A stretch of 64,000 bases of DNA from Dictyostelium discoideum (lineage: Eukaryota). Shown one piece after another: positions 11,089-12,508 of the stretch; position 1 is the first letter of the stretch; each line of letters begins with the position of its first letter. Made by a program: the position numbers and the translations under genes. Below the pieces are notes generated by a model. It was not told the origin of the DNA. It did no database searches and saw only the letters and a program-made list of their open reading frames with translations. The stretch spans positions 928,001-992,000 of the forward strand of contig CM000150.2 in NCBI GenBank assembly GCA_000004695.1. Reading direction: 5' to 3'.

Positions 11089-12508
11089 ATGATATCCCCA
11101 ACAACACCAACATCAACATCTACATCAACATCAACATCAACAAAAACAAAATTATCATTATCATTTTTATCAAATTTTTCAATACCAACAGAACCAATTG
11201 GTAGTATACCGAGACCAAAATATTTAATTGAAGCTATTAAAGATTATAATGAACAAAAGATTAATTATGAACAATATTTAACAATTTGTGATAAATCATT
11301 GAAAGAAACTGTTGAATCATTTTTAGAGGTAGGTTCAACAGTGATTACAGATGGTGAGCAATATAAACCAAATTTTATAACTTATCCTATATTTGGATCC
11401 AATCAAGTTGCAGAGAATTCAAAAGTTGGTTTCATTATTAATTTTCAAGATGGTCATGTACGTCAATTACCAGTGTTAACAGGTAAGAACCTGCCTTTCC
11501 GATATAAACAATACGCAAGTGAATATATAACTAGAGTTAAGAAAATGTTTCCAAACGTTCGTATAAAGCAGCCTATTATCTCAGTTTCCGCAATGTCTTT
11601 AATCTATCCTTCAAATCCCCAACAACAACAACATCCACAACTTGACAAATATAGTAAACAAGAGTTCCTTAATGATATGTTAAACGAAGTTGAAAAAGAA
11701 ATTAGGTTATCGTTAATGGCGGGGGCTGATAGCGTGCAAATTGATGCCACAGAGGCTAGACTATCTCTGAAAATCGATCCGTCAGGCTCACTATTAAAGA
11801 AATTCATTGATTTAAATAACCAATTATTAATTAGATTTACTGATGAAGAAATTCAAAAAATTGGTATTCACTCCTGTCCTGGTGGCGATAGATCATTTCA
11901 TAGTGCTGATGTTGACTATTGTAGATTATTAATACCATCATTATTTAAATTACGCTTATCAAGATTTTATTTAGAATTTGCAGCAGAAAAAGAGAAATTG
12001 AAAATATTGGAATGTATTGCTAAAAATCTCAGACCAAATATAATCATATTTTTTGGTGTTATTAATGTTTTAAATCCAAGAGTTGAATCACCTGAAGAAG
12101 TTAGAGATTCAGTTTTACAAATTGCAAAATATATACCAATTAATCAAATTGGGTAAATAATAATCATTATTTTTTAATTTTTTTATTATTGTTACTAACT
12201 TTAAAAAATACATATTTAGGAGTTGTTGTGATTGTGGTTATCAACCATTTACTTCTGAATTATTTTCACGAGATATTGTATTTCAAAAAATTAAAAATAG
12301 AATAATTGGTACAAAAATGGCTGAAGATGTTCTCAAACAAGTATTATCAATCGGTGTCAATAATATAAATAATATTTATAATAATAATAATAATAATAAT
12401 AATAATAATAATAATAATAATAATAATAATAATAATAATAATAATAATAATAATAATAATAATAATAATAATAATAATAATAATAATAATAATAATAAAA
12501 ATTACTAA
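11089..12508 (+). CDS. Stand-alone cobalamin-independent methionine synthase (MetE) catalytic-domain-like protein (Meth_synt_2 / UROD-MetE superfamily). Exons are 11089..12152 and 12220..12508.
   Basis: Motifs collinear with the MetE C-terminal domain. DSVQIDATEA matches IQIDEpA. GIHSCPGG is a His-x-Cys zinc-ligand pair. FYLEFAAEKE is a candidate Glu ligand. FGVINVLNPRVESPEEVRDSV matches MetE GVYDIHSPRVPSVEEM. After a GTAAAT..TTTAG intron comes SCCDCGYQPF, matching the MetE DCGL Cys ligand. The C-terminus is a 42-residue poly-Asn tail. Confidence 0.7.

What the first reader, a model, noticed from the sequence alone, without database searches (positions are those of the whole stretch)
11089..12508. 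Stand-alone MetE-catalytic-domain-like zinc enzyme with poly-Thr/Ser N-terminus and 42-Asn C-tail
Only the C-terminal (catalytic, Zn-binding) half of cobalamin-independent methionine synthase is present. All four putative zinc ligands are conserved in order: His-x-Cys in GIHSCPGG, Glu in FYLEFAAEKE, and Cys in SCCDCGY after the intron. The IQIDE-like and PRVESPEEV blocks are also present. Stand-alone Meth_synt_2 proteins are mostly bacterial or fungal (YxjG/YxjH-like) and use unknown methyl donors and acceptors. In an amoeba this is an under-explored enzyme and possibly another horizontal acquisition. The long homopolymer tails are host-type embellishments.
Basis: partly seen in the sequence, partly recalled or inferred. 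Interest (0 to 1): 0.55.

Follow-up and report, generated by a model that had tools for sequence, protein, structure and literature searches.

The report
Bacterial-origin single-barrel methionine-synthase-like enzyme in amoeba
This social-amoeba gene encodes a stand-alone zinc enzyme resembling only the catalytic half of the B12-independent methionine synthase; it was acquired from soil bacteria, belongs to a well-conserved family nobody has characterised, and probably methylates homocysteine from a methyl source that is still unknown.

Summary
A two-exon gene (11089-12152, 12220-12508; 67-nt intron) encodes a 450-aa protein. Its core (residues ~32-400) is a single MetE-type catalytic barrel. 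The Ser/Thr head and a run of 39 (not 42) Asn are species-specific additions.

His261, Cys263 and Cys360 (zinc) and Ser39, Glu90 and Asp219 (homocysteine) are invariant in 198 relatives. The residues MetE uses for methyl-folate are not conserved, and no N-terminal barrel exists here or in any orthologue.

The protein belongs to a tight ~353-aa family. It is found in at least 572 bacterial species genomes, mostly soil Bacteroidota, Actinomycetota and Acidobacteriota. The amoeba protein is 50-53% identical to these. It scores far below the cut-offs of the NCBIfam stand-alone and canonical models that matched, including the one I take to be MesD-type.

Dictyostelids of several genera form one clade nested among bacteria, with a shared intron and synteny, so this is an old horizontal transfer.

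A SAR11 branch with the same active-site signature sits behind a SAM-V riboswitch and before homocysteine-forming MetZ. That supports homocysteine methylation.

The methyl donor is unknown. Moderate interest.

The parts
11089..12152 (+). Exon 1 (codons 1-354 plus two bases of codon 355).
   Evidence: ORF and translation; Pfam PF01717 over residues 33-363.
12153..12219 (+). Intron, 67 nt, GTAAAT...TTTAG, 10% GC, phase 2.
   Evidence: The junction is confirmed by gap-free alignment to orthologues. D. purpureum has an intron at the same codon. The A. subglobosum orthologue is intronless.
12220..12508 (+). Exon 2, carrying the last zinc-ligand Cys, the C-terminal helix, the Asn tail and stop TAA at 12506-12508.
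11089..11181 (+). Species-specific N-terminal extension, residues 1-31, rich in Ser/Thr/Lys (MISPTTPTSTSTSTSTSTKTK...).
   Evidence: Absent from D. purpureum, P. violaceum and all bacterial relatives. There is no other in-frame ATG before the conserved IPTEPIGS.
11203..11745 (+). Span holding the three predicted homocysteine-binding residues: Ser39 (11203-11205), Glu90 (11356-11358), Asp219 (11743-11745).
   Evidence: Invariant in 198 family sequences. They align to Ser22/Glu73/Asp188 of 3RPD and Ser433/Glu484/Asp599 of E. coli MetE (PMC7857596).
11869..11877 (+). His261-Ser-Cys263, the first two zinc ligands (the HxC motif in GIHSCPGG).
   Evidence: Invariant in 198 of 198 sequences. Equivalent to His641/Cys643 of E. 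coli MetE (PMC7857596).
11974..11988 (+). Glu296 (the canonical MetE Glu position) and Glu300 (the family-invariant acid), within FYLEFAAE.
   Evidence: Glu296 aligns to T. maritima Glu642, but is Glu in 75% and Gln in 24% of the family and Pro in the SAR11 branch. Glu300 is conserved in 197 of 198 and across distant branches.
12233..12235 (+). Cys360, the last zinc ligand (in SCCDCGY).
   Evidence: Invariant in 198 of 198 sequences. Equivalent to Cys726 of E. coli MetE.
12380..12496 (+). Uninterrupted run of 39 Asn (residues 409-447), encoded by (AAT)n.
   Evidence: Absent from all orthologues.
9799..11088 (+). AT-rich intergenic and promoter region (13.7% GC) between the upstream membrane-protein ORF and the start codon. 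No listed ORF of 40 aa or more lies between 10000 and 11088 on either strand.
   Evidence: This rules out hidden N-terminal-barrel exons.

Best explanation
The gene encodes a cytosolic, single-barrel, zinc-dependent thiol methyltransferase of the MetE catalytic-domain type. A dictyostelid ancestor acquired it from a bacterium, probably one related to Bacteroidota or Balneolota, and the gene has since been fully domesticated. Proposed mechanism: Zn2+ is held by His261, Cys263 and Cys360, plus Glu296 or Glu300. L-homocysteine binds through Ser39 (carboxylate) and Glu90/Asp219 (amino group). Its sulfur joins the zinc as a thiolate and attacks the methyl group of a donor, giving methionine. The donor is not methyl-tetrahydrofolate-polyglutamate bound in the MetE manner. 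It is probably bound by a set of family-specific invariant polar residues: Lys93, Asp121, His123, Arg125, Arg224, Lys228, Asp230, Asp267, His271, Arg372, Lys378. In the amoeba the enzyme would give a B12-independent way of remethylating homocysteine alongside MetH. Shown here: the gene structure, the fold, residue conservation, that the family is distinct, bacterial ancestry, and the SAM-riboswitch/MetZ linkage of the SAR11 branch. Inferred: zinc binding, homocysteine as acceptor, methyl transfer, and the physiological role. Unknown: the donor.
For: Fold and family: Pfam PF01717 above its cut-off. PDB profile hits are 1YPX 6e-18, 3RPD 4.5e-16 and MetE C-barrels. Foldseek TM is 0.65-0.72 to these against about 0.5 to UROD. 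Active site: His261, Cys263, Cys360, Ser39, Glu90 and Asp219 are invariant in 198 sequences. These positions are the ones defined in PMC7857596 and seen contacting selenomethionine in 3RPD. Not a folate-type MetE: there is no N-barrel. T. maritima Trp539 maps to Leu171, His672 to Leu328, and Asp467 to Asn95 (Ser in most relatives). Glu583 does not align to an acid. Link to methionine synthesis: a SAR11 branch is 37% identical to a Chitinophagaceae member and keeps Ser39, Glu90, Lys93, His123, Arg125, Asp219, His261, Cys263, Asp267, His271, Glu300, Cys360, Arg372 and Lys378. In all 11 of its loci scanned with Rfam it lies 62 nt behind a SAM-V riboswitch (51-69 bits; gathering score 41). In most loci it lies 38 nt before O-succinylhomoserine sulfhydrylase MetZ (TIGR01325, 542 bits against 510). 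One variant locus has metF plus canonical metE instead. SAR11 is reported to lack MetE and MetH (PMC5069961, PMC12478193). Horizontal transfer: the top 120 of 7,927 hits are five dictyostelid proteins and otherwise unnamed or bacterial-named sequences 49-53% identical. At least 572 bacterial species genomes carry the family. In a neighbour-joining tree the dictyostelids are monophyletic in 47 of 60 bootstraps and nested among bacteria, with a Balneolaceae MAG as sister in 38 of 60. Domestication: eukaryotic neighbours (cyclophilin, coronin, Miro), cyclophilin synteny and a shared intron with D. purpureum, an intronless copy in Acytostelium, and host-like GC3 of 16%.
Against: No biochemical or genetic data exist for any member. 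In 16 loci of the core soil family no SAM, SAH or B12 riboswitch precedes the gene. Its neighbours vary. In 17-19 Bacteroidota loci they are AhpD-like peroxidase-related genes, an MFS transporter and SusC/D, not methionine genes. One carrier genome has a canonical MetE 7 kb away, so the enzyme is not simply the housekeeping synthase there. The SAR11 evidence comes from one closely related population and from a branch only 31% identical to the amoeba protein. A core-MetE homologue of unknown family in Phaeobacter inhibens does not rescue methionine auxotrophy (PMC12478193). The tree is neighbour-joining only, and the backbone is weakly resolved.
Confidence: 0.6

Rival explanations
1. The database annotation is literally right. 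The single barrel is a 5-methyltetrahydrofolate (mono- or polyglutamate):homocysteine methyltransferase (EC 2.1.1.14 activity) that binds folate in a different way from two-barrel MetE.
For: Sources name relatives '5-methyltetrahydropteroyltriglutamate--homocysteine methyltransferase'. Arg125 aligns with T. maritima Arg496, which contacts the first folate glutamate. One SAR11 locus places the gene next to metF, the methylene-THF reductase. The many invariant basic residues could bind a polyanionic folate.
Against: The pterin-stacking Trp539, the pterin-binding Glu583 and the candidate acids His672 and Asp467 are not conserved. The N-barrel residues Lys104, Arg15 and Lys18 are absent. The characterised single-barrel enzymes MesA and MesB have no activity with methyl-THF, and MesD does not need it (PMC7857596). 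The source names are automatic annotations.
Confidence: 0.15
2. It is a corrinoid-dependent core methionine synthase like MesA or MesB. It would take the methyl group from methylcobalamin or a methyl-corrinoid protein; the amoeba obtains B12 from its prey.
For: The only biochemically characterised core enzymes use methylcobalamin in vitro (PMC7857596, PMC7005905). D. discoideum uses B12 (MetH, class II RNR; PMC2667541).
Against: No corrinoid-protein gene recurs near the family in the 85 bacterial loci clustered, nor in the SAR11 loci. Carriers are soil and surface-ocean bacteria that I take to be aerobic, not Wood-Ljungdahl anaerobes or methanogens. SAR11 is reported to lack the cobalamin methyltransferases MetH and MtgBCDE (PMC12478193). 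The best NCBIfam model, PRK04326, scores 74.8 bits against a 406-bit cut-off.
Confidence: 0.1
3. It is a zinc-thiolate alkyltransferase with a different job. It might act like epoxyalkane:coenzyme M transferase, detoxify a soil electrophile, or work on another thiol or selenol, possibly together with AhpD-like redox partners. In that case it is not a methionine synthase.
For: It lies in operons with 2-4 CxxC AhpD-like 'peroxidase-related' genes (TIGR01926, above the cut-off in three of the four tested), an MFS transporter and a SusC/SusD pair in 17-19 Bacteroidota loci. No methionine riboswitch precedes it in soil bacteria. It coexists with a canonical MetE. From general knowledge, not tested here, the MetE fold is known to support non-methyl alkyl transfer.
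Against: [quoted passage not shown] The SAR11 branch, with the same signature, is SAM-regulated and sits next to the homocysteine-forming MetZ. The amoeba keeps the gene without any AhpD-like neighbour. MesD also coexists with MetH or MetE in most genomes (PMC7857596).
Confidence: 0.12
4. The gene is bacterial contamination, or a decaying, non-functional relic of a transfer.
For: High identity to bacterial proteins. Homopolymer tails and low GC3 suggest weak expression.
Against: It has a spliceosomal intron shared with D. purpureum, a host base composition, and flanking coronin, cyclophilin and Miro genes. Orthologues occur in dictyostelids of five genera, with every catalytic residue intact and a clade topology that I judge to follow the species tree.
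Confidence: 0.02

Closest known systems
MesD, the core methionine synthase of aerobic bacteria (Acinetobacter ACIAD3523; structure 3RPD from Shewanella)
   Same: A single MetE-type barrel of about 350 aa, with the HxC...E...C zinc site and the Ser/Glu/Asp homocysteine triad. It occurs in aerobes, often alongside MetH or MetE, and is independent of folate and cobalamin (PMC7857596). Foldseek TM is 0.72.
   Different: Only 23% identical. PRK09121, the NCBIfam model I take to be MesD-type, scores 42.6 bits against a 392-bit cut-off. No DUF1852/MesX partner appeared in the Pfam-annotated loci, and none recurred in the neighbourhood clustering. The family-specific invariant residues differ.
YxjG/YxjH-type stand-alone Meth_synt_2 proteins (Listeria structure 1YPX; NCBIfam PRK06233)
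   Same: Stand-alone catalytic barrel. It is the best PDB hit for the family profile (6e-18). It shares the double-Glu motif: FFLEYDNE against FYLEFAAE.
   Different: 24% identity. It scores 57 bits against a 576-bit cut-off. From general knowledge, the Firmicute proteins are S-box regulated. The function of that family is also unproven.
Canonical two-barrel MetE (EC 2.1.1.14; T. maritima 1T7L, Arabidopsis 1U1H, Candida 3PPC)
   Same: The C-terminal barrel fold, the zinc ligands, the homocysteine pocket, and the IGS, GE, IDE and DCG motifs.
   Different: There is no N-terminal barrel. The folate-contact residues Trp539, Glu583, His672 and Asp467 are not conserved. TIGR01371 scores 28.6 bits against a 930-bit cut-off.
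MesA/MesB/MesC core-MetE enzymes of methanogens and Wood-Ljungdahl anaerobes
   Same: Minimal single-barrel homocysteine methyltransferases lacking a folate domain (PMC7857596, PMC7005905).
   Different: Those occur in anaerobes with corrinoid-protein donors. This family is found in soil bacteria, SAR11 and amoebae, which I take to be aerobic, and has no corrinoid neighbours. The best archaeal-type model scores 74.8 bits against 406.
Eukaryotic acquisitions of core-MetE domains: the Phaeocystis 'MetE-fusion', and dinoflagellate metE genes lacking the N-domain
   Same: These are precedents for single MetE barrels entering eukaryotes by horizontal transfer (PMC10861871) and for eukaryotic metE genes without the N-terminal domain (PMC11197592).
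   Different: MetE-fusion is embedded in a multidomain PKS-like protein. The dinoflagellate genes are interpreted as incomplete and non-rescuing. The amoeba gene is a free-standing, strongly conserved member of a bacterial family.

Membership tests
Pfam PF01717 Meth_synt_2 (MetE catalytic-domain superfamily) | The profile match is above the gathering score and covers most of the domain. | tested here: met
   35.9 bits against 21, E 6.6e-9, residues 33-363 on profile positions 2-304 of 324.
Pfam PF01717 Meth_synt_2 (MetE catalytic-domain superfamily) | MetE-type barrel fold rather than merely a UROD-like barrel. | tested here: met
   Foldseek TM is 0.65-0.72 to MetE C-barrels, 3RPD and 1YPX. 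UROD entries reach only 0.42-0.53. Model pLDDT is 87.8.
Pfam PF01717 Meth_synt_2 (MetE catalytic-domain superfamily) | Zinc ligands His-x-Cys ... Glu ... Cys. | tested here: met
   His261, Cys263 and Cys360 are invariant. Glu296 is present in this protein but variable in the family; Glu300 is invariant. Actual zinc binding was not tested.
Canonical MetE (EC 2.1.1.14, TIGR01371) | Two-barrel architecture with an N-terminal Meth_synt_1 domain. | tested here: not met
   The protein has a single domain. The upstream ORFs encode a cyclophilin and a membrane protein, and the intergenic region is non-coding. Orthologues are 353-388 aa.
Canonical MetE (EC 2.1.1.14, TIGR01371) | Folate-contact residues (T. 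maritima Trp539, Glu583, the DMV Asp467, the DIHSP His672). | tested here: not met
   They map to Leu171, a non-acid, Asn95 (Ser in relatives) and Leu328. Only Arg496 has a conserved counterpart, Arg125.
Canonical MetE (EC 2.1.1.14, TIGR01371) | Equivalog model score above the cut-off. | tested here: not met
   TIGR01371 scores 28.6 bits against 929.95. PRK05222 scores 21 bits against 541.
MesD/MesX system | Close similarity to ACIAD3523 (Price et al. used at least 390 bits, about 55% identity). | tested here: not met
   23% identity and 65 bits to the MesD structure 3RPD. PRK09121, which I take to be the MesD-type model, scores 42.6 bits against 392. ACIAD3523 itself was not available for comparison.
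MesD/MesX system | An adjacent DUF1852 (MesX) gene. | tested here: not met
   No PF08908 appears in the Pfam-annotated loci. No neighbour family of that size recurs in the clustering of 85 loci. There was no direct DUF1852 profile scan of every locus.
YxjG/YxjH-type (PRK06233) | Equivalog model score above the cut-off. | tested here: not met
   57.1 bits against 576. 24% identity to 1YPX.
MesA/MesB/MesC core-MetE | Occurrence in methanogens or Wood-Ljungdahl organisms with a corrinoid-protein donor. | tested here: not met
   Carriers are Chitinophagaceae, Dyadobacter, Amycolatopsis, Streptomyces, Acidobacteriota, SAR11 and dictyostelids. No corrinoid genes recur nearby. PRK04326 scores 74.8 bits against 406. 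No direct alignment to the named MesA, MesB or MesC sequences was made.
Core methionine synthase in the functional sense (homocysteine to methionine) | Conserved homocysteine-binding Ser/Glu/Asp triad. | tested here: met
   Ser39, Glu90 and Asp219 are invariant in 198 sequences.
Core methionine synthase in the functional sense (homocysteine to methionine) | Genomic or regulatory linkage to methionine biosynthesis. | tested here: inconclusive
   Met in the SAR11 branch: SAM-V riboswitch in all 11 loci scanned, and MetZ or metF-metE downstream. Not seen in 16 loci of the soil family.
Core methionine synthase in the functional sense (homocysteine to methionine) | Demonstrated methyl transfer to homocysteine, or complementation of a methionine auxotroph. 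| not testable with these tools
   This needs enzyme assays or genetics.

The most novel reading that the evidence does not exclude
This is a further family of 'core' methionine synthases. It works as a single polypeptide in aerobic cells, needs neither folate-polyglutamate, cobalamin nor a MesX partner, and draws on a methyl donor not yet linked to methionine synthesis. It would supply the methionine-forming step in SAR11 lineages that lack MetE and MetH. After transfer to the dictyostelid ancestor, it would give social amoebae a B12-independent way to regenerate methionine. The genetically tractable Dictyostelium gene would then be the easiest place to identify the donor.
Probability: 0.3. 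Interest if true: 0.72.

Novelty: new variant of a known kind. Interest (0 to 1): 0.5.

Why it matters
How aerobic organisms make methionine with single-barrel MetE relatives is unresolved. Even for MesD the methyl source is unknown, and recent work questions whether such homologues function at all in aerobic marine bacteria (PMC12478193).

This family is widespread in soil bacteria and conserved to about 62% identity between phyla. One branch sits in a SAM-riboswitch-controlled operon with the homocysteine-forming enzyme, in the most abundant marine bacteria. The family has also been kept since a transfer that predates the split of the dictyostelid genera sampled here.

If it is a methionine synthase with a new donor, three things follow. 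It adds a route to a central metabolic step. It bears on B12 dependence in amoebae; the need for B12 in Dictyostelium media is described as contradictory (PMC8085122). And it bears on sulfur and methyl budgets in SAR11.

If it is not a methionine synthase, it is still a clean, datable bacterium-to-amoeba gene transfer with later intron gain.

Tried and rejected
- **Hidden N-terminal MetE exons.** Rejected. The upstream ORFs encode a cyclophilin and a membrane protein, and the 1.3-kb spacer is 13.7% GC with no listed ORF of 40 aa or more between 10000 and 11088.
- **UROD fold only.** Rejected by Foldseek.
- **Riboswitches upstream of soil-family members.** Sixteen loci from seven or more phyla were scanned. 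The only hits were an SAH riboswitch belonging to a neighbouring ahcY gene in Amycolatopsis, and tRNAs.
The apparent Amycolatopsis neighbours are genus-level synteny, not cross-lineage linkage. These were DNA polymerase IV, SAH hydrolase, an AurF-like oxygenase, MarR, TetR, a metallo-beta-lactamase-fold protein and GTP cyclohydrolase II. Only three were confirmed by Pfam; the others I assigned by reading the sequences.
- **AhpD-like partner in the window.** tblastn found none.
- **Context of the more distant members P0272 and P0164.** Uninformative.
- **SAR11 'bhmT' as the same protein.** Rejected. The literature says SAR11 Bhmt resembles human BHMT (PMC12478193).
- **Literature on the Dictyostelium gene itself.** Five searches found nothing specific. 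The D. discoideum genome paper was not held.
- **AlphaFold-database fold search for named eukaryotic relatives.** The library was unavailable.
- **Not attempted because the tools list only the best 120 hits.** A search for a dictyostelid full-length MetE, and a search for dictyostelid AhpD-like genes. Maximum-likelihood phylogeny was also not possible, as no such program was available; neighbour-joining with 60 bootstraps was used instead.
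Full report
**What is there.** The window is 21.7% GC, a composition I take to be dictyostelid-like. An ORF starts at ATG 11089 and reads to an in-frame stop at 12154. A GTAAAT donor at 12153 and a TTTAG acceptor ending at 12219 remove 67 nt, and the frame continues to TAA at 12506-12508. The product is 450 aa. The junction ...IPINQIG|SCCDCGY... aligns without a gap to every orthologue. D. purpureum has an intron at exactly this codon. 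Residues 1-31 are rich in Ser, Thr and Lys. Neither tail occurs in any orthologue.

**Is it a MetE-type catalytic domain?** Yes.
- Pfam PF01717 matches residues 33-363 at 35.9 bits (cut-off 21).
- The closest solved structures by sequence are the stand-alone proteins 3RPD and 1YPX, followed by the C-terminal barrels of canonical MetE.
- An AlphaFold model built on 62 sequences is confident (pLDDT 87.8, pTM 0.89). It superposes on those structures at TM 0.65-0.72, against about 0.5 for uroporphyrinogen decarboxylases.

The second, hidden N-terminal exons, also fails. The upstream + strand ORFs encode a cyclophilin and a membrane protein. Positions 9800-11088 are 13.7% GC, and no ORF of 40 aa or more is listed between 10000 and 11088. 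All orthologues and bacterial relatives are single-domain proteins of 353-390 aa.

**Active site.** I aligned 198 non-identical family members.
- His261, Cys263 and Cys360 are invariant. They are equivalent to His641, Cys643 and Cys726 of E. coli MetE.
- Ser39, Glu90 and Asp219 are also invariant. These residues hold the carboxyl and amino groups of homocysteine in MetE, and they contact selenomethionine in 3RPD (PMC7857596).
- The canonical fourth ligand position, Glu296, aligns to T. maritima Glu642. It is Glu in only 75% of members and Gln in 24%, and it is Pro, Ser, Thr or Ala in more distant branches.
- Glu300, four residues on, is conserved in 197 of 198 and in every distant branch that keeps the HxC...C site. 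Which Glu binds zinc is open.

The residues that T. maritima MetE uses for methyl-folate are mostly not conserved (PMC539065). Trp539 stacks on the pterin and maps to Leu171. Glu583 binds the pterin and does not align to an acid. His672 and Asp467 are candidate acids; they map to Leu328 and to Asn95 (Ser in most relatives). Only Arg496 has a conserved counterpart, Arg125. Lys104, Arg15 and Lys18 belong to the N-barrel, which is absent.

The family has its own invariant polar residues with no MetE counterpart: Lys93, Asp121, His123, Arg224, Lys228, Asp230, Asp267, His271, Ser272, Arg372 and Lys378. My inference is that they form the site for the second substrate.

**Which family?** None of the named ones. 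All the NCBIfam methionine-synthase models that matched score far below their cut-offs:

| Model | Score (bits) | Cut-off (bits) |
|---|---|---|
| PRK04326 | 74.8 | 406 |
| PRK06233 (YxjG/H type) | 57 | 576 |
| PRK09121 (I take this to be MesD type) | 42.6 | 392 |
| TIGR01371 (MetE) | 28.6 | 930 |

Identity is 23% to MesD (3RPD) and 24% to 1YPX. Both are below the 30% that Price et al. used to separate families.

The protein belongs to a compact family. The best hits are D. purpureum (72%), Polysphondylium violaceum (69%), an unnamed EukProt entry (61%), Tieghemostelium (54%) and Acytostelium (55%). After these come hundreds of ~353-aa proteins 49-53% identical; those that carry a name are from Chitinophagaceae and other Bacteroidota. 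They came from Chitinophagaceae, Dyadobacter, Chryseolinea, Mucilaginibacter, Amycolatopsis, Streptomyces, Saccharothrix, Acidobacteriota and others. Members from different bacterial phyla are about 62% identical to each other. At 50% clustering the family collapses to roughly a dozen full-length representatives plus fragments (97 with E ≤ 1e-30).

**Horizontal transfer and domestication.** In a neighbour-joining tree rooted with 3RPD and 1YPX, the six dictyostelid sequences form one clade. To my knowledge its internal order follows the accepted species phylogeny. The clade is nested among bacteria. It was monophyletic in 47 of 60 bootstraps, and its sister was a Balneolaceae MAG in 38 of 60 and a Bacteroidota lineage in most of the others. 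The donor is therefore probably from the Bacteroidota/Balneolota group, but the backbone is weak and the method is crude.

The gene is not contamination.
- It lies between cyclophilin, coronin and Miro-type genes.
- It shares the upstream cyclophilin and an intron position with D. purpureum.
- It is intronless between an ATR kinase gene and an EH-domain gene in Acytostelium.
- Its GC3 is 16%, which is host-like.

The transfer therefore predates the split of the dictyostelid genera sampled here, and the introns were gained later. Other eukaryote-labelled members turned up and were not followed up: a divergent D. dimigraforme paralogue, Rhizoctonia, and an acanthocephalan.

**What does it do?** The bacterial neighbourhoods of the soil family vary. 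The only association that crosses lineages is in 17-19 Bacteroidota loci and one acidobacterial locus. There the gene sits in the same orientation, a few nucleotides from 2-4 paralogous CxxC AhpD-like 'peroxidase-related' genes (TIGR01926; three of four tested are above the cut-off). An MFS transporter, an unannotated ~185-aa protein and a SusC/SusD pair are also present. No DUF1852 (MesX) and no corrinoid protein recur. One carrier has a canonical MetE 7 kb away. No SAM, SAH or B12 riboswitch precedes the gene in 16 loci sampled across phyla.

The useful clue came from a more distant branch in Pelagibacteraceae (SAR11). It is 31% identical to the amoeba protein and 37% to a Chitinophagaceae member. 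It keeps the full signature: Ser39, Glu90, Lys93, His123, Arg125, Asp219, His261, Cys263, Asp267, His271, Glu300, Cys360, Arg372 and Lys378. Eleven of its loci were scanned with Rfam, and in all eleven the gene lies 62 nt downstream of a SAM-V riboswitch (51-69 bits against a gathering score of 41). In most loci it lies 38 nt upstream of O-succinylhomoserine sulfhydrylase MetZ (TIGR01325, 542 bits against 510). Peroxiredoxin, rhodanese and a YeeE/TsuA-like sulfur transporter sit upstream. In one variant locus, metF and a canonical metE follow instead.

MetZ makes homocysteine. A SAM-repressed operon of this gene with MetZ is what one would expect for the last two steps of methionine synthesis. 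SAR11 is reported to lack MetE and MetH and to carry a human-type Bhmt, which is a different protein (PMC5069961, PMC12478193).

Together with the invariant homocysteine triad, this makes homocysteine S-methylation the best-supported activity. Transferring that inference to the soil and amoeba branch rests on the shared active-site signature.

The AhpD-like genes in Bacteroidota, the peroxiredoxin in SAR11, and OsmC next to bhmT in Pelagibacter (PMC5069961) may reflect protection or reduction of an oxidation-prone zinc-thiolate enzyme or of its thiol substrate in aerobes. This is speculation.

**The donor.** Unknown. Methyl-folate bound as in MetE is unlikely, given the residue mapping, the missing N-barrel, and the precedent of MesA, MesB and MesD. 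A corrinoid donor is unlikely, given the carriers and their neighbours. MesX-type chemistry is unlikely because there is no partner gene. Small methylated metabolites and a novel folate-binding mode both remain open.

**In the amoeba.** D. discoideum is reported to have MetH and to use B12 (PMC2667541). The need for B12 in its media is described as contradictory (PMC8085122). A B12-independent homocysteine methyltransferase would fit, but this is inference. I could not check for a full-length MetE in dictyostelid genomes.

**Verdict.** The gene is a genuine, anciently transferred member of an uncharacterised family of single-barrel MetE relatives, distinct from the MesD-type, YxjG/H-type and canonical models tested, and most likely a homocysteine methyltransferase with an unidentified donor. 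It is a new variant of a known kind. Interest is moderate, and would be higher if the donor proves novel.

Noticed in passing
window 15374-16708 (-), 8052-8669 (+), 2506-3567 (-): Ordinary eukaryotic neighbours: a coronin-type protein (DUF1899 + WD40 + WD40_4, 444 aa), a cyclophilin, and a Miro-type EF-hand GTPase fragment. They show that the locus is nuclear amoeba DNA.
   Followed up: partly
window 12974-14338 (+): A 454-aa ORF with no Pfam match. It has long Asn runs and a Cys-rich stretch (CGGITKTGKPCAKIGFCSFH). Its function is unknown.
   Followed up: no
L086 (D. purpureum) 334-6644: The gene order is cyclophilin, the MetE-like gene, then a terpene synthase (Terpene_syn_C_2) and an ependymin-like gene. 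The MetE-like gene has three introns there. The last is at the same codon as the single intron in the window.
   Followed up: partly
L001 4172-13249 (Chitinophagaceae-like metagenome contig): An apparent operon. It holds an unannotated ~185-aa signal-anchored protein (present twice, at 4172-4735 and 9642-10193), four paralogous TIGR01926 AhpD-like genes (three with CxxC), an MFS transporter, the MetE-like gene, and then SusC/SusD. The same module recurs in 17-19 Bacteroidota loci. Its substrate is unknown.
   Followed up: partly
L088 7765-8001 and L094-L103 2875-2939 (SAR11 contigs): A SAM-V riboswitch precedes a gene not listed among its known targets (metY, mmuM, bhmT), namely a core MetE-like gene followed by metZ. 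A weak SAM-II-like hit (23.7 bits, below threshold) and a stem followed by a T-run, which looks like a terminator, lie just upstream. [quoted passage not shown] The aptamer carries its own AUG and an 8-codon ORF before the real start.
   Followed up: partly
L101 4261-7089 (SAR11 contig): A variant locus in which the core MetE-like gene is followed by metF and a canonical metE, both split into fragments, instead of metZ. The fragmentation may be assembly error.
   Followed up: no
proteins P0121, P0124, P0137, P0123: Scattered eukaryote-labelled family members. P0121 is a divergent second copy in Dictyostelium dimigraforme (44% identical, keeps the dictyostelid GKNLPF insertion). P0124 is from Rhizoctonia (on a 1.09-Mb contig). 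P0137 is from the acanthocephalan Pomphorhynchus laevis. P0123 is an unnamed 470-aa protein with eukaryote-like tails. They could be independent transfers or contamination.
   Followed up: no
proteins P0126, P0150, P0164: Distant family branches that have lost the zinc ligands (Y-x-G, H-x-A and S-x-G in place of H-x-C, with the last Cys replaced). They presumably have a non-catalytic or different function.
   Followed up: no
L019 6080-6157 (-) (Amycolatopsis nalaikhensis): An SAH riboswitch (39.5 bits against 37) lies upstream of the S-adenosylhomocysteine hydrolase gene, about 4 kb from the family member on the opposite strand. The arrangement is conserved within Amycolatopsis, so it is probably genus-level synteny rather than functional linkage.
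   Followed up: partly
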